Shown: piece after piece, positions 1,510-7,067 of the stretch
Layout: every line of letters begins with the position of its first letter
Numbering within the stretch: position 1 is the stretch's first letter
Virus record (IMG/VR): IMGVR_UViG_3300029070_000030
Length of the DNA stretch: 7,067 bases
Source of the DNA: a virus
Lineage: Duplodnaviria; Heunggongvirae; Uroviricota; Caudoviricetes
Reading direction: 5' to 3' (one strand)
The notes under the pieces: generated by a model
Told to the model about the DNA's origin: nothing
What the model saw: only the letters and a program-made list of their open reading frames with translations
The model's database searches: none
Translations under genes and position numbers: made by a program

Positions 1510-1837
1510 GGGACACCTCCACCACCGGCAGACGGGCAGCAAGGGAGAGCACATAGTCACGGACAAGGGAACGGCGGGCGCTGCGTTCATCACCGGCGAC
1601 GGTGCGAAGCATACAGATACGGGGATGACGGTCTGCGCGACGGACAGCCGCAAACACAAAGACAAATTCAGGGTGTGAAGGGGTAAGGGTCGTAGCCATA
1701 AGGCAACCTCCGATAACAGCGTAAATGACGCTATCGCCGGAGTTTCCACGCTCGATGGCGATAGCCCAGACGGGGGTGGAAATACCGGCGTTATCGGAAA
1801 CCGGCCAGCCCGGAGGCTGCCCCGCCTGAGCTACCAT
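1502..1837 (-). CDS. Hypothetical protein upstream of eps (111 aa from ATG 1837; may extend to ATG 2101, 199 aa)
   Basis: Part of the 214-aa track ORF 1502..2146. The C-terminal 111 codons ([31 protein letters not shown]...LPVVEVSRA) look protein-like, and the stop TAA 1504-1502 abuts the eps GTG. An upstream in-frame ATGATGATG (2101-2093) overlaps the vis stop, which would give 199 aa, but that N-terminal stretch has odd composition and a lower-GC, palindrome-rich template. No recognisable motif. Low confidence. Confidence 0.3.
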
Positions 1838-2097
1838 TGACTCTGCGGTATAATGAGCGGACGCGGGCAGAATGCACGGAGTGCCATTTGCTCGACTGAC
1901 CACACACCACACCATAATCTGGCGCTCTGTGGCGTTGATTGCGACACAAAAAAAGACGCATGGCGCGTCATATGTCGCCGATAACATACTCGGGTTTCCA
2001 CGCCCGGCTGCCGATTTTGCGGCAGCGGAAAAACTATATCCGCAAATGCCGGAAAAAGGCAAGCCAGAAAAAGGGACTTTTTGCAGAACAGGCATCA

Positions 2098-2364: not shown

Positions 2365-2466
2365 CGGGCTACCTCGTTAATGTCCATACAGCACCGGATA
2401 AGTCCGTCCGGCTTCGGGTAGCGCTTTATTTTGTGAATATTTTCGGCAGACGCAACAGGGGGGATT

Positions 2467-2484
2467 TGTTCCGGCAGTCTTACA
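2467..2484 (-). promoter_or_regulatory. TGT-N12-ACA dyad, candidate Ogr/Delta-type activator site of a leftward late promoter (P_LL-like) upstream of vis
   Basis: TGT (2467-2469), 12 nt, ACA (2482-2484). The centre is ~110 bp upstream of the vis ATG, consistent with a site centred near -55 and a ~55-nt leader. The motif is only 6 fixed bases, so chance occurrence is possible. Confidence 0.4.
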
Positions 2485-2642
2485 ATGGCTGTGTGTTTTT
2501 TGTACATCAGCGCCAGATAGCTTTAAAACGCTCTGGAAGGAGCTGGAAAAAATTATAGTGAAATACAAATTGTTTTTTCTTATTTATTTCAGTGAATTAA
2601 TAAAAATAAAAAGTAATAAACAGCACAAAAAGCCCATCAACG

Positions 2643-2747
2643 GGTGAACAGTGGTGAACAGACGGTGAACAGTCATTACTGCGATTGTTCACCCTTTAAC
2701 TTACTGTATTACTTATCTTTTTTCTTATGGTGAACAGAGGTGAACAG
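2643..2747. repeat. Iteron cluster: five direct copies of GGTGAACAG plus one inverted TGTTCACC; P4 alpha-binding type-I iteron (TGTTCACC), ori/crr-like
   Basis: GGTGAACAG at 2643-2651, 2653-2661, 2664-2672, 2729-2737 and 2739-2747; inverted TGTTCACC at 2686-2693; embedded in an AT-rich tract (2560-2760). The octamer is the reverse complement of the P4 type-I iteron bound by alpha (from memory of the P4 literature). Confidence 0.7.
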
Positions 2748-2825
2748 TAAAATATAAAAAAACAAACAGTAAGCCGGTTTTTCCTGCGACCTTTTCCTGG
2801 CTTGCCGGTCTGAGGATGAGTCTCC

Positions 2826-2843
2826 TGTGTCAGGGCTGGCACA
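2826..2843 (+). promoter_or_regulatory. TGT-N12-ACA dyad, candidate Ogr/Delta-type activator site of the sid late promoter (P_sid-like)
   Basis: TGT (2826-2828), 12 nt, ACA (2841-2843). The centre is ~80 bp upstream of the sid ATG (2916), consistent with a -55 activator site and a short leader. P2/P4 late promoters carry this dyad (established knowledge). Confidence 0.5.
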
Positions 2844-2915
2844 TCTGCAATGCGTCGTGTTGTTGTCCGGTGTACGTCACAATTTTCTTAACCTGAAGTG
2901 ACGAGGAGCCGGAAA

Positions 2916-4543: not shown

Positions 4544-4643
4544 GCATGCGTTTTCCCGCCTCATTTCCTGCAGATTACGCCGCGCCCGACGCGGCGTGAG
4601 CGTGTCAGTGCAACTGCATTAAAACCGCCCCGCAAAGCGGGCG

Positions 4644-4662
4644 GGCGAGGCGGGGAAAGCAC
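4644..4662. other. cos site: 19-nt P2/P4-type cohesive-end sequence GGCGAGGCGGGGAAAGCAC
   Basis: Exact match at 4644-4662 to the conserved 19-nt cohesive end shared by P2, 186 and P4 (recalled from the literature). It lies between psu and int, where cos sits in P4, and is flanked by GC-rich dyads (4578-4596 and ~4625-4644). Confidence 0.8.
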
Positions 4663-4687
4663 TGCGCGCGAATGGATGATTTTCAAT

Positions 4688-5644
4688 TTAAATGCCAAGC
4701 AATAATTTTTTCTTGAAGTAGCTTTCAAAGCTATCCTTATCACCATTGAATACACCCATCAACTCATCAGAGTTTATTATTATATTCATTATTTCTCTTA
4801 AATAATTATCAAGTTTAATGCTTTCCTCTGGTAGTTTTCCAACTTTAGATGATTTTAAACTGTCACCATGAGTAACTTTAGAGCGAATGTTATAGAATGA
4901 CTTTATTTCATCAAATGTAGTGATAGGATCAAAGTTATATGGTTTTAAGAAAATAGCGACCCGCTCAGAAAGTTTATGAGAAAGTTCAGAGCTATCTGTT
5001 GAGAATAAGCTCTCAAGTGCGCTGCAGTAGTGAGATATTTTCATTGCGGGATCGAAATCTCGCTTTGCTGATCTTATAAAACTCAATGCCCTTCCATAGC
5101 GAGAATATTTTGAATCAACAAAAGAATCAAAAATAGTAGAGTTATTATTATATAGGTGAGTTTGAACTCGATGGTTTATATCTGCCCACTTAGTTAAGTC
5201 ACTCCTGTTAAATTCAACATCAATATGGCGATAACCGCTTGCCATCGTAAATAAACTTAATAGACTATTGTTCGACCATTCAGAATATGCTTTGCGATCA
5301 GTTTTATTGCAATATGCAATTTCGCAAAGCATGCCATTATCCTTGATAAACCAAGAAGTATTTATAAGCATATCTATCCACAAAAGCCAAGTCGTCAATG
5401 CAAAATTGCTTTTTGTAGACGGCTGAAAAAAATCATCTTTAAGATCGGCAAAAATTATGTGATTTGCATTGTATAAATGTTCATATTCAATGATACCAGT
5501 AAAAGGCTTAATATCTTTGTTAATTATTTTTCTAATTTTTGCCCTATCTCTTATTAGAGTAACTCCGGGAAGGAGGTCAAAATCATCGAAATTATCCCCT
5601 ATAACATTCATAAATCTTAATGTTGTGTAGAATTTAAAGTGCAT
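4688..5644 (-). CDS. Hypothetical protein, 318 aa, AT-rich hotspot cargo; function unknown (candidate anti-phage defence / abortive-infection protein)
   Basis: 318-aa ORF with no internal stops in strongly AT-rich DNA that contrasts sharply with the GC-rich P4 backbone. GGAG lies 7 nt upstream of ATG 5644, and the start overlaps the last codons of int. Located between cos and int, the variable hotspot of P4-like satellites. I recognise no family; the only motif noted is a possible Rx4H (R254...H259, NIRSKVTHGD), which is weak. Confidence 0.8.
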   Translation of the reverse strand: MHFKFYTTLRFMNVIGDNFDDFDLLPGVTLIRDRAKIRKIINKDIKPFTGIIEYEHLYNANHIIFADLKDDFFQPSTKSNFALTTWLLWIDMLINTSWFIKDNGMLCEIAYCNKTDRKAYSEWSNNSLLSLFTMASGYRHIDVEFNRSDLTKWADINHRVQTHLYNNNSTIFDSFVDSKYSRYGRALSFIRSAKRDFDPAMKISHYCSALESLFSTDSSELSHKLSERVAIFLKPYNFDPITTFDEIKSFYNIRSKVTHGDSLKSSKVGKLPEESIKLDNYLREIMNIIINSDELMGVFNGDKDSFESYFKKKLLLGI

Positions 5645-6830
5645 TATATATCTCCATATTCATTTTCGGATATAATCTATCACTATACCATTGCATCATT
5701 TCTTTCCTTTTCTCTAAATATTGTGCATGGTTATATGTGCCTCGAATTGTGTTTTTATCTACATGAGCTAATTGCATTTCAATCCATACACTATTGAATC
5801 CTTTTTCATGCAAAATGGTTGACATGGTATGCCTGAACCCATGACCTGTTGCACGACCTTTGTAGCCTAATAACTCAATCACCTGTGTCACACTTTCTTT
5901 AGATATAGGTTTACTACGATTATTTCTACCTATAAAAATGTAGGGATAATGGCCGCTAATAGGCTTGAGCTGTTTAAAAAGGGCAATCACCTGAGTAGAT
6001 AGAGGTACAATATGAGGTCTGCGCATTTTCATCCTTTCAGCTGGAATCTCCCATATTCCTTTCTCAAGGTCAACTTCATCCCACGTGGCAAAGCGCATTT
6101 CCTGAGTTCTTACGCCAGTTAACATGACAATTTTTGTCGCATTTTTAGTGATGATGCTTCCGGTATACGCTTCAAGATCTTGAATAAAATAAGGCAATTC
6201 TTCGGCAGATAAAAATGGGTGGTGTTTTTGCTTAGGAACGGCCAGAGCGATAGCTAAATCAGGTGCTGGATTGTATTCAGCGCGGCCAGTGATGATCGCG
6301 TAGCGAAACACCTCTCCGCATCGTTGACGTACTTTTCTGGTTTTCTCCAACGCTCCACGTTTTTCTATGCGTTTAAGAACTTCAAGCAGTTCTAGGGGTT
6401 TAATTTCAGCTATTGGCCGTTTACCAATGAAAGGAAAAACATCCTGTTCAAATGTTTTAATAATTTCTTCGCGATAAGCTAAAGTCCAGCGATCTGCTTT
6501 TGTTGCATGCCATTCTCTGCTAACGGCCTCAAAAGAGTTTTCAGTTGATAATTTCTGAGCAATTTTCTGAGCCTTACGTTCTTCTACTGGATCAATGCCG
6601 TTTGCAACCTGTTTACGTGCCGTATCGCGTTTCTCACGTGCTTCCGCGAGGCTTACAAGATCGTAACTACCAAATGACATTAACCGCGCTTTACCGGCAA
6701 AACGAAAGCGGAATCGCCATCCCTTTGAGCCGTCTGGATTGATGAGTAATGACAAGCCTTGCCCATCATTCATTGTATATGGTTTGTCTTGTGGTTTTGC
6801 GCGTTTGATTTGTATATCGGTTAGAGCCAT
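5634..6830 (-). CDS. int: P4-type tyrosine integrase (site-specific recombinase), selC-specific
   Basis: 398-aa ORF beginning MALTDIQIKRAKPQDKPYTMNDGQGLSLLINPDGSKGWRFRFRF, the characteristic N-terminal arm-binding domain of P4-family integrases. C-terminal catalytic region has HGFRHT...LAHVDKNTIRGTYNHAQY (H-x-x-R ... H ... Y). It lies directly downstream of, and co-oriented with, a tRNA gene 3' end. Confidence 0.9.
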   Translation of the reverse strand: MALTDIQIKRAKPQDKPYTMNDGQGLSLLINPDGSKGWRFRFRFAGKARLMSFGSYDLVSLAEAREKRDTARKQVANGIDPVEERKAQKIAQKLSTENSFEAVSREWHATKADRWTLAYREEIIKTFEQDVFPFIGKRPIAEIKPLELLEVLKRIEKRGALEKTRKVRQRCGEVFRYAIITGRAEYNPAPDLAIALAVPKQKHHPFLSAEELPYFIQDLEAYTGSIITKNATKIVMLTGVRTQEMRFATWDEVDLEKGIWEIPAERMKMRRPHIVPLSTQVIALFKQLKPISGHYPYIFIGRNNRSKPISKESVTQVIELLGYKGRATGHGFRHTMSTILHEKGFNSVWIEMQLAHVDKNTIRGTYNHAQYLEKRKEMMQWYSDRLYPKMNMEIYNAL

Positions 6831-6992: not shown

Positions 6993-7067
6993 TGGCGGAA
7001 GATCACAGGAGTCGAACCTGCCCGGGACCGCTGGCGGCCCCAACTGGATTTGAAGTCCAGCCGCCTC
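6993..7067 (-). tRNA. selC: tRNA-Sec (selC), 3' 75 nt including CCA; 5' ~20 nt lie beyond the window end
   Basis: Reverse complement of 6993-7067 reads GAGGCGGCTGGACTTCAAATCCAGTTGGGGCCGCCAGCGGTCCCGGGCAGGTTCGACTCCTGTGATCTTCCGCCA, which matches my recollection of positions 21-95 of E. coli selC (anticodon loop CTTCAAATC with UCA, long variable arm, T-arm GGTTCGACTCC, 3' CCA). Confidence 0.9.

What the first reader, a model, noticed from the sequence alone, without database searches (positions are those of the whole stretch)
4688..5644. AT-rich 318-aa orphan gene in the psu-cos-int hotspot: candidate undescribed anti-phage defence protein
This gene occupies the slot between cos and int where P4 carries gop-beta-cII and where P4-like satellites are known to carry swappable anti-phage systems (established knowledge). 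Its composition is visibly far more AT-rich than the flanking backbone (I did not compute exact GC), indicating separate acquisition. It is a single gene with no partner ORF, so any activity would be a one-protein system. I cannot match it to any defence family or protein I know. A possible HEPN-like Rx4H motif (R254-SKVT-H259, coords ~4868-4885) hints at an RNase-type abortive-infection mechanism, but such a short motif can occur by chance.
Basis: partly seen in the sequence, partly recalled or inferred. Interest (0 to 1): 0.85.

Follow-up and report, generated by a model that had tools for sequence, protein, structure and literature searches.

The report
Untested single-gene HEPN defence candidate
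The AT-rich 318-aa gene carried between cos and int of this P4-like satellite belongs to a large, widespread family of two-domain proteins with a C-terminal HEPN ribonuclease domain; it is very probably a one-protein anti-phage system, and it has already been catalogued and predicted as such, but I found no report of an experimental test.

Summary
There is a 318-aa ORF at 4688..5644 (-) with GC 0.32, against 0.53-0.58 in the backbone. It lies between the exact P4 cos site (4644-4662) and int (5634-6830), with no room for a partner gene.

The "orphan / no match" claim is wrong:
- A profile search finds 853 cluster representatives at E<=1e-30, nearly all about 310-330 aa, across many phyla.
- Rousset et al. 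2022 list this accession as a single-gene "HEPN_Apea" cargo of the P4 hotspot.
- DefensePredictor lists it as a predicted novel defence gene.
- I found no record of an experimental test.

It fails the ApeA, DARNA and HepS membership tests. It is solitary everywhere, and in Vibrio cholerae it is a one-gene integron cassette.

Best reading: an auto-inhibited sensor plus HEPN RNase that acts as an abortive-infection protein, a new variant of a known kind. Interest is moderate.

The parts
4688..5644 (-). [quoted passage not shown]
   Evidence: ORF list; identical annotated CDS in 16 complete E. coli genomes; 126 homologs by word-index search and 853 representatives at E<=1e-30 by exhaustive profile search
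5135..5644 (-). N-terminal alpha/beta domain (residues ~1-170), the presumed sensor/regulatory domain; invariant G50, W98 and D102, with E53 at >=90%
4691..5101 (-). C-terminal HEPN domain (residues ~182-318), all-helical; invariant E211, Y251, R254, S255, H259 and G260; near-invariant E220, H223, E227, R228, K248, D279 and R283
4868..4885 (-). R254-S-K-V-T-H259, the Rx4H catalytic motif of the HEPN domain
   Evidence: Coordinates computed; R, S, H and the following G are invariant in 121 sequences of 21-38% identity
5652..5655 (-). GGAG Shine-Dalgarno 7 nt upstream of the ATG, inside the last codons of int; the ATG (5642-5644) overlaps the int stop region (int ends at 5634)
   Evidence: Sequence read directly; no sigma-70-like site upstream of the ATG within the int 3' end. 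Co-transcription and translational coupling with int are inferred.
4684..5670 (.). Approximate extent of the swapped cargo module. The left edge is just after cos; the right edge lies inside the int 3' end, so the last ~12-27 int codons travel with the cargo.
   Evidence: Other satellites match the psu-cos side only up to window ~4683 (H20) and the int side only from ~5670-5715 onward, at 79-84% identity
4644..4662 (+). P4 cos site (GGCGAGGCGGGGAAAGCAC), the backbone landmark on the left of the hotspot
   Evidence: Exact match, 0 expected by chance
4625..4644 (-). G+C-rich hairpin followed by TTTT, a terminator-like site downstream of the gene (backbone sequence)
   Evidence: Consensus scan; function not shown
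5634..6830 (-). Tyrosine integrase (398 aa), the backbone landmark on the right of the hotspot
   Evidence: ORF list; RefSeq annotation WP_001414312.1
6997..7067 (-). tRNA-Sec (selC) attachment site, cut by the window end
   Evidence: Rfam RF01852, 51.5 bits; full tRNA-Sec annotated in the matching genome

Best explanation
The gene encodes a self-sufficient, one-protein anti-phage immune protein carried as swappable cargo in the psu-cos-int hotspot of a P4-like satellite integrated at selC.

The protein has two domains: an N-terminal alpha/beta domain of unknown fold family (about residues 1-170) and a C-terminal HEPN ribonuclease domain (about 182-318) with the catalytic R254-x4-H259.

Proposed mechanism:
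- It is made constitutively at a low level, probably co-transcribed and translationally coupled with int.
- It is kept inactive as a dimer or higher oligomer.
- It is switched on by an infection cue sensed through the N-terminal domain or an N-domain/HEPN interface.
- It then cuts RNA, most likely tRNA anticodon loops as in ApeA, DARNA, HepS and PrrC. This stops translation and aborts the infection.

Shown here: gene, position, composition, family size, invariant catalytic residues, HEPN fold, solitary and mobile genetic context.

Inferred: RNase activity, anti-phage phenotype, oligomeric state, trigger and RNA target.
For: 1. HEPN fold and active site.
- The AF2 model is confident (pLDDT 91.9, pTM 0.90).
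- R254, S255, H259 and G260, plus E211 and Y251, are invariant across 121 homologs of 21-38% identity.

2. Defence-type location.
- cos is at 4644-4662 and int at 5634-6830.
- 2252 E. coli genomes share the flanks, but only 18 carry this cargo.
- Rousset et al. 2022 (PMC9122126) established this slot as an anti-phage hotspot. Their Table S1 lists this accession 13 times as single-gene 'HEPN_Apea' cargo.

3. Autonomy.
- There is no conserved neighbour among 465 flanking ORFs of 35 loci.
- In Vibrio cholerae the 45%-identical homolog is a one-gene superintegron cassette. It is flanked by attC sites on both sides and has different neighbours in each strain.

4. Patchy, mobile distribution.
- The family occurs in Enterobacteria, Pseudomonas, Vibrio, Arcobacter, Acidobacteriota, Cyanobacteria, Bacteroidota, Bacillota and Verrucomicrobia.
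- Neighbours include integrases, Septu PtuA, AriAB-like proteins, RM methylases, reverse transcriptases, an AbiJ N-domain protein and a relaxase.

5. Absent from 50,697 phage genomes.

6. Independent prediction. DefensePredictor gives WP_001710916.1 a log-odds of 10.7, labels it 'Predicted novel defense gene', and reports a remote hit to a Gao_Ape~ApeA cluster.

7. Mechanistic precedent. ApeA, DARNA and HepS are single HEPN proteins that cleave tRNA anticodon loops when triggered.
Against: - No experimental phenotype exists for any member that I could find.
- A different P4-hotspot HEPN protein (pFR83, HEPN-TPR) gave no protection in Rousset's panel. Hotspot position plus a HEPN domain therefore does not guarantee a detectable phenotype.
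- The window protein matches no PADLOC model, and it matches no Pfam or NCBIfam model at a significant level; the only Pfam hit is DUF2985 at E = 0.11, below threshold.
- No own promoter was detected.
- Neighbourhoods are mixed, with many housekeeping genes, and I ran no matched control for defence enrichment.
- The tRNA target and the sensing role of the N-domain rest on analogy only.
Confidence: 0.65

Rival explanations
1. It is a true but streamlined member of the ApeA (Gao_Ape) system and works exactly like ApeA. That would mean a ligand pocket between the N-domain and HEPN domain that binds small nucleotide products of infection, ring-shaped oligomers, and tRNA anticodon cleavage.
For: - Rousset et al. 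labelled the protein HEPN_Apea.
- One relative (P0109) reaches Pfam PF18739 at exactly the gathering score.
- The DefensePredictor table reports probability 96.1 to a Gao_Ape~ApeA cluster.
- Integron cassettes are known to hold streamlined versions of defence systems.
Against: - The PADLOC ApeA models give no hit for the window protein or for 44 relatives.
- Pfam HEPN_Apea hits 0 of 121 and 3 of 44 family members, and not the window protein.
- There is no ApeA_NTD1 and no Mid domain. The protein is 318 aa, against about 580 aa and three domains in ApeA.
- The reported remote hit covers only about 12% of the protein.
Confidence: 0.15
2. It is a toxin-type addiction or stabilisation module for mobile elements (satellite, integron array, plasmids) rather than an anti-phage system. 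On this reading a HEPN RNase penalises loss of the element.
For: - HEPN toxins are common in toxin-antitoxin pairs such as HEPN-MNT, and the best structural matches include HepT toxins.
- Vibrio superintegrons are stabilised by toxin-antitoxin cassettes.
- The gene always rides on mobile or variable DNA.
Against: - There is no antitoxin. No conserved neighbour exists in 35 loci.
- There is no space for one in the 1-kb cargo.
- There are no repeats that could encode an RNA antitoxin.
- A single-gene cassette with its own attC cannot be a two-part addiction module.
Confidence: 0.08
3. It serves the satellite's own life cycle, for example manipulating the P2 helper or host RNA during P4 induction, rather than immunity against unrelated phages.
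For: It lies directly downstream of int and overlaps it, with a ribosome-binding site inside int. It may therefore be expressed with integration/excision functions.
Against: - The same full-length family occurs in integron cassettes, integrative elements, plasmids and chromosomes of many phyla that have no P4-like satellites.
- Only 18 of the more than 2000 E. coli genomes that share the flanks of this slot carry it. It is therefore not needed for satellite biology.
Confidence: 0.04
4. It is an active HEPN RNase defence, but it acts directly on phage RNA without killing the cell (non-abortive), as reported for Ec1ApeA against ssRNA phages.
For: The preprint on Ec1ApeA reports cleavage of phage genomic RNA without cell death. 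Nothing here fixes the target.
Against: Most characterised single-protein HEPN defences (ApeA against DNA phages, DARNA, HepS) cleave host tRNAs and arrest growth.
Confidence: 0.08

Closest known systems
ApeA (Gao_Ape; Gao et al. 2020; Juozapaitis et al. 2026 preprint 10.64898/2026.01.26.701840)
   Same: Both are single-gene systems with a C-terminal HEPN domain of the Apea-like branch and an essential Rx4H. In both, non-HEPN N-terminal sequence is presumed or shown to sense infection. Both are found in E. coli mobile elements. There is weak profile-level similarity in the catalytic region.
   Different: ApeA is about 580 aa with three domains (N-terminal, Mid, split HEPN_ApeA), forms decamers or dodecamers, and binds ligands in an N-domain/HEPN pocket. 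This protein is 318 aa with one unrelated alpha/beta N-domain. It fails the PADLOC ApeA models and the Pfam HEPN_Apea and ApeA_NTD1 models.
HepS (HEPN Solo, Gifsy-1 prophage; PMC13043305)
   Same: Both are mobile-element-encoded, self-sufficient HEPN abortive-infection proteins; HepS is an anticodon nuclease.
   Different: HepS is a standalone HEPN domain of under 250 aa with R100-H105 and no extra domain. It is triggered by a siphovirus tail-tip protein. This protein has a 170-aa N-domain and its motif is at 254-259.
DARNA / PD-T7-3 (preprint 10.64898/2026.02.22.705581)
   Same: Both are single-protein HEPN defences with an extra non-catalytic domain; DARNA cleaves tRNA anticodon loops when activated.
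   Different: DARNA is 456 aa with the HEPN domain at the N-terminus (R117-H122) and a Pds5-like helical C-domain. It is a dodecamer activated by ssDNA presented by phage SSB. The domain order and partner domain differ here, and there is no PADLOC hit.
Minimal HEPN toxins (HepT of HEPN-MNT toxin-antitoxin pairs; AF0298; HI0074)
   Different: They are proteins of 120-150 aa controlled by an adjacent MNT antitoxin. Here there is no partner gene, and the HEPN domain is fused to a conserved N-domain.
Other P4-hotspot and integron HEPN cargos (HEPN-TPR pFR83 of Rousset 2022; Esos and Taranis of the V. cholerae N16961 superintegron; DS-11 CBS-HEPN of DefensePredictor)
   Same: They share the genetic niches (P4 psu-int hotspot, Vibrio superintegron) and the same logic of a HEPN domain fused to a variable second domain.
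   Different: These are different proteins. pFR83 is longer and TPR-containing, and gave no protection. DS-11 has a CBS domain. Esos is described only as 'HEPN-like'. I could not obtain its sequence, and no member of this family from a complete N16961-type chromosome appeared, so identity with Esos is unlikely but not excluded.

Membership tests
HEPN superfamily | All-alpha HEPN core fold | tested here: met
HEPN superfamily | Conserved Rx4-6H catalytic motif | tested here: met
   R254 and H259 are invariant in 44 sequences and in 121 sequences of 21-38% identity. It is the only such motif in the protein.
HEPN superfamily | Metal-independent RNase activity from a composite dimer active site | not testable with these tools
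   Needs biochemistry. A multimer prediction was not possible with the tools allowed.
ApeA / Gao_Ape defence system | Match to the curated ApeA protein models used by defence finders | tested here: not met
   PADLOC-DB gives no hit at E<=10 for the window protein and no ApeA hit in 44 relatives.
ApeA / Gao_Ape defence system | Pfam HEPN_Apea (PF18739) domain at or above the gathering score | tested here: inconclusive
   The window protein has no hit. 3 of 44 relatives hit; the best, P0109, scores 24.4 bits, equal to the cut-off. 0 of 121 diverse members hit. Third-party tables call it HEPN_Apea or report probability 96.1 over about 12% of its length.
ApeA / Gao_Ape defence system | Three-domain architecture of about 580 aa (ApeA N-terminal domain, Mid domain, split HEPN_ApeA) | tested here: not met
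   The protein is 318 aa with a single alpha/beta N-domain of about 170 aa. There is no PF18862 or any other Pfam hit.
ApeA / Gao_Ape defence system | Ring-shaped decamer or dodecamer and a conserved ligand pocket | not testable with these tools
   The ApeA structures are not in the PDB copy searched.
P4-like satellite hotspot cargo (Rousset et al. 2022) | Lies between psu/cos and int of a P4-like element | tested here: met
   psu, delta and sid-like genes; cos at 4644-4662; int at 5634-6830; C4/CI RNA and isrK; tRNA-Sec attachment site.
P4-like satellite hotspot cargo (Rousset et al. 2022) | Variable content between otherwise similar satellites | tested here: met
   2252 genomes match the flanks, but only 18 hold the gene. 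int-side homology starts at about 5670-5715.
P4-like satellite hotspot cargo (Rousset et al. 2022) | Demonstrated anti-phage activity | not testable with these tools
   The accession is listed in their Table S1. It is not among the tested systems in the part of their Tables S2A/S2B that I read, and the only HEPN-named entries in that file are pFR83 (HEPN-TPR) and pFR103 (putative HEPN, P2 locus).
HEPN-MNT type toxin-antitoxin | Adjacent cognate antitoxin gene | tested here: not met
   There is no conserved neighbour in 35 loci. The cargo holds one ORF. It is a single-gene attC-bounded cassette in Vibrio.
HepS | Standalone HEPN protein of under 250 aa without extra domains | tested here: not met
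   The protein is 318 aa with a conserved 170-aa N-domain.
DARNA / PD-T7-3 | N-terminal HEPN domain plus C-terminal Pds5-like helical domain, about 456 aa | tested here: not met
   The domain order is opposite (HEPN is C-terminal), and there is no PADLOC hit.

The most novel reading that the evidence does not exclude
This roughly 318-aa family is a distinct, very widespread, minimal sensor-effector immune protein. On this reading its conserved N-terminal alpha/beta domain (invariant G50, W98, D102) recognises a new kind of infection signal, not the ApeA dinucleotide pocket, the HepS tail-tip peptide or the DARNA ssDNA. That signal would then allosterically open a HEPN RNase site. It would be a new named defence system, with a compact architecture small enough to travel as a single integron cassette.
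Probability: 0.35. Interest if true: 0.65.

Novelty: new variant of a known kind. Interest (0 to 1): 0.4.

Why it matters
If confirmed, this would add a compact, one-protein HEPN immune system. It is common across bacterial phyla (hundreds of 50%-identity clusters) and moves on three different kinds of vehicle: P4-like satellites, Vibrio superintegron cassettes, and integrative elements and plasmids.

Its N-terminal domain has no known relative, so working out what it senses could reveal a new infection cue. Its small size would make it a tractable model for how HEPN RNases are kept off and then switched on.

The gene is not a surprise to the field. It is already listed as HEPN cargo of the P4 hotspot and as a machine-learning-predicted defence gene. 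The value lies in testing it, not in discovering it.

Tried and rejected
- **Direct family scans of the window protein.** Pfam, NCBIfam and PADLOC gave nothing significant, and PHROGs gave only a weak partial hit (phrog_28161, E = 2e-6, unknown function).
- **Profile search of PDB sequences.** Only chance-level hits to CED-3/CED-4; rejected.
- **Foldseek against PDB and BFVD.** No significant match. AFDB50 was not available.
- **HEPN-domain-only profile search, meant to bridge to full-length ApeA.** It returned mainly truncated fragments of the same family. No direct sequence or structure comparison with a real ApeA protein was therefore possible.
- **Is the validated V. cholerae cassette 'Esos' (HEPN-like) the same family?** Its sequence and locus tag were not in the held text or supplements. 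The Vibrio homolog cluster is not found on a contig over 1 Mb, which argues against N16961. This stays unresolved.
- **DARNA, HepS, HEPN-TPR (pFR83) and DS-11.** I considered each and rejected identity with all of them on architecture.
- **A hidden partner.** I looked for a conserved neighbour, an RNA antitoxin and tandem repeats, and found none.
- **An own promoter.** The simple promoter scan found no site upstream of the start codon.

Full report
**1. What is in the window**

The 7067-base window is most of a P4-like phage satellite integrated at selC. Its contents are:
- Backbone genes: the 5' end of the primase gene, an Icd-like gene, an HTH regulator, a sid-like gene, delta and psu.
- The P4-type immunity RNA region: Rfam C4 at 1754-1841, isrK at 1949-2026 and c4-a1b1 at 1987-2039.
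- The exact 19-nt P4 cos sequence at 4644-4662.
- A tyrosine integrase at 5634..6830 on the minus strand.
- The 3' part of tRNA-Sec at 6997-7067.

The same arrangement is annotated in E. coli strain 300709, at 99.9% identity, next to yicJ-yicI.

**2.

- The ORF at 4688..5644 (-) encodes 318 aa.
- Its GC content is 0.322 (third codon positions 0.286). This compares with 0.529 for psu, 0.582 for the sid-like gene, 0.572 for the first 2.4 kb and 0.408 for int.
- Satellites with other cargo match the psu-cos side only up to about 4683. They match the int side only from about 5670-5715 onward. The exchangeable module is therefore about 1 kb, holds this single ORF, and includes the last 12-27 codons of int.
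- The ATG overlaps the end of int by 11 nt, and a GGAG lies 7 nt upstream of it, inside int. No sigma-70-like site precedes the start codon. I infer co-transcription and translational coupling with int; this is not shown.

**3. The gene is not an orphan**

- It is present at full length in 18 of 5426 complete E. coli genomes: 16 at >=99% identity and 2 at 84%. The five copies whose neighbourhood I inspected (H1, H17, H19, H22 and the Citrobacter locus L009) lie directly next to the integrase, and H1, H17 and H19 show the tRNA-Sec site.
- A word-indexed search found 126 homologs down to about 27% identity.
- An exhaustive profile search of 1.84 billion cluster representatives found 853 at E<=1e-30, 2768 at <=1e-10 and 10,470 at <=1e-3. 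The best 150 are almost all 290-340 aa and align over the full length.
- One genome per species gave 34 loci. They come from Citrobacter, Pseudomonas, Methylomonas, Arcobacter, Acidobacteriota, a cyanobacterium, Alphaproteobacteria, Bacteroidota, Bacillota and Verrucomicrobia.

**4. What the protein is**

- AlphaFold2 with a 44-sequence alignment gives a confident model (mean pLDDT 91.9, pTM 0.90). It has a mixed alpha/beta N-terminal domain (about 1-170) and an all-helical C-terminal domain (about 182-318).
- In 121 homologs that are 21-38% identical to the query (one closer, at 71%), E211, Y251, R254, S255, H259 and G260 are invariant. E220, H223, E227, R228, K248, D279 and R283 are nearly invariant.
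- A lone Rx4H would appear in 35% of shuffled sequences of this composition. The evidence is therefore the invariance plus the fold, not the motif itself.

**5. Genetic behaviour points to an autonomous defence gene**

- Among 465 flanking ORFs from 35 loci, no protein family recurs in more than three loci.
- In Vibrio cholerae the 45%-identical homolog is a single-gene cassette of the chromosomal superintegron. A VCR-type attC lies directly upstream. Its own attC lies directly downstream and is identical in three strains whose next cassette differs. In one strain it is the first cassette, next to the integron integrase.
- In Burkholderia it sits in an integrase-bounded element.
- In Flavobacterium it sits next to a reverse transcriptase, a HEPN/Toprim-like gene and a relaxase.
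- In Citrobacter it occupies the same P4-like slot at selC.
- The 131 nearest neighbours in 25 other loci include 5 integrases, 2 Septu PtuA ATPases, 2 AriAB-like proteins, type I and type II methylases, HNH nucleases and DUF3375, alongside housekeeping genes. I ran no matched control, so this is supportive only.
- No sequenced phage carries the gene (0 of 50,697), and nine plasmids do.

**6. Comparison with known systems**

- *Hotspot.* Rousset et al. 2022 validated the psu-int slot as an anti-phage hotspot. Their Table S1 lists WP_001710916 13 times as "HEPN_Apea". The tested systems I could read do not include it. A different hotspot protein, HEPN-TPR (pFR83), gave no protection.
- *DefensePredictor.* Its supplement scores WP_001710916.1 at log-odds 10.7 and labels it "Predicted novel defense gene". 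It reports a remote hit (probability 96.1, coverage 0.12) to a Gao_Ape~ApeA cluster. Neither the accession nor sequence motifs of this family occur in the tested-system tables.
- *ApeA.* It is about 580 aa with three domains, forms decamers or dodecamers, cleaves tRNA anticodon loops, and (for Ec2ApeA) is activated by 5'-phosphorylated deoxydinucleotides. The window protein does not match the PADLOC ApeA models or Pfam HEPN_Apea. Only 3 of 44 and 0 of 121 relatives reach that Pfam model, and the best sits exactly on the threshold.
- *DARNA.* It has an N-terminal HEPN domain and a Pds5-like C-domain.
- *HepS.* It is a HEPN-only protein of under 250 aa.

The gene therefore works like these systems in outline but is not a member of any of them. 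It represents an outlying branch of the Apea-like HEPN clade fused to its own N-terminal domain.

**7. Mechanism**

The most likely mechanism (confidence about 0.65) has three steps:
- The protein is made at a low level together with int and held inactive, probably as a HEPN dimer or larger assembly.
- An infection cue is sensed through the N-domain.
- The Rx4H site is released to cut RNA, most likely tRNA anticodon loops, which arrests translation and aborts infection.

The fold, the catalytic residues and the autonomous, mobile context are shown. RNase activity, phenotype, trigger, target and oligomeric state are inferred by analogy.

Rivals:
- A streamlined true ApeA (0.15).
- A mobile-element addiction toxin (0.08). 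The absence of any partner argues against it.
- A non-abortive RNase that acts on phage RNA (0.08).
- A satellite life-cycle function (0.04). The family's presence far outside satellites argues against it.

**8. Verdict**

The claim of an unmatched orphan is refuted. The claim of an undescribed candidate needs softening: the gene is catalogued and computationally predicted but, as far as I could find, untested. It is a new variant of a known kind, of moderate interest.

Noticed in passing
window 1754-2039 (-): P4-type immunity RNA region: Rfam C4 antisense RNA (77.9 bits), isrK (74.7 bits) and the c4-a1b1 target element (51.5 bits). This confirms the element is a P4-like satellite.
   Followed up: partly
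L001 262-1869 (E. coli 300709; beyond the left end of the window, past the primase gene): The same satellite carries a second defence-type gene, annotated 'TIR domain-containing anti-phage reverse transcriptase', next to a winged-helix pseudogene. This element therefore has cargo at both ends.
   Followed up: no
window ~5634-5715 (int 3' end): The last ~12-27 codons of int are not shared with int genes of satellites that carry other cargo; their homology, at 79-84% identity, stops at about 5670-5715. Cargo exchange therefore recombines inside int and rewrites its C-terminus. GC falls to 0.315 in the last 200 nt of int.
   Followed up: partly
L044 2473-3012 (E. coli ES4, hit H19): A decayed copy: an IS5 element cuts the gene after roughly residue 170-179. 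This removes the HEPN domain and the rest of the satellite, and leaves int plus an N-domain-only 'hypothetical protein'.
   Followed up: partly
L043 (E. coli E1, hit H17) and L009 (Citrobacter amalonaticus): Divergent alleles of the gene (84% nucleotide identity in E. coli; 75% protein identity in Citrobacter) sit in the same slot of divergent P4-like satellites at selC. The cargo-slot association is therefore older than a single recent transfer.
   Followed up: partly
window 2400-2900: An AT-rich stretch of about 530 bp (GC 0.37-0.41) with no long ORF lies between the HTH regulator gene and the sid-like gene. It is presumably the divergent promoter/control region of the satellite.
   Followed up: no
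L002 7958-8120, L004 6295-6424, L005 3275-3420 (Vibrio cholerae): The cassette's own attC site is a distinct variant of the Vibrio cholerae repeat. It is identical in three strains, while the upstream attC belongs to the common type, so the gene and its attC move as one unit.
   Followed up: yes
window 4625-4644 (-): A G+C-rich hairpin with a T-run lies immediately beyond cos, on the strand of the HEPN gene. It is backbone sequence that could terminate the int-cargo transcript.
   Followed up: no
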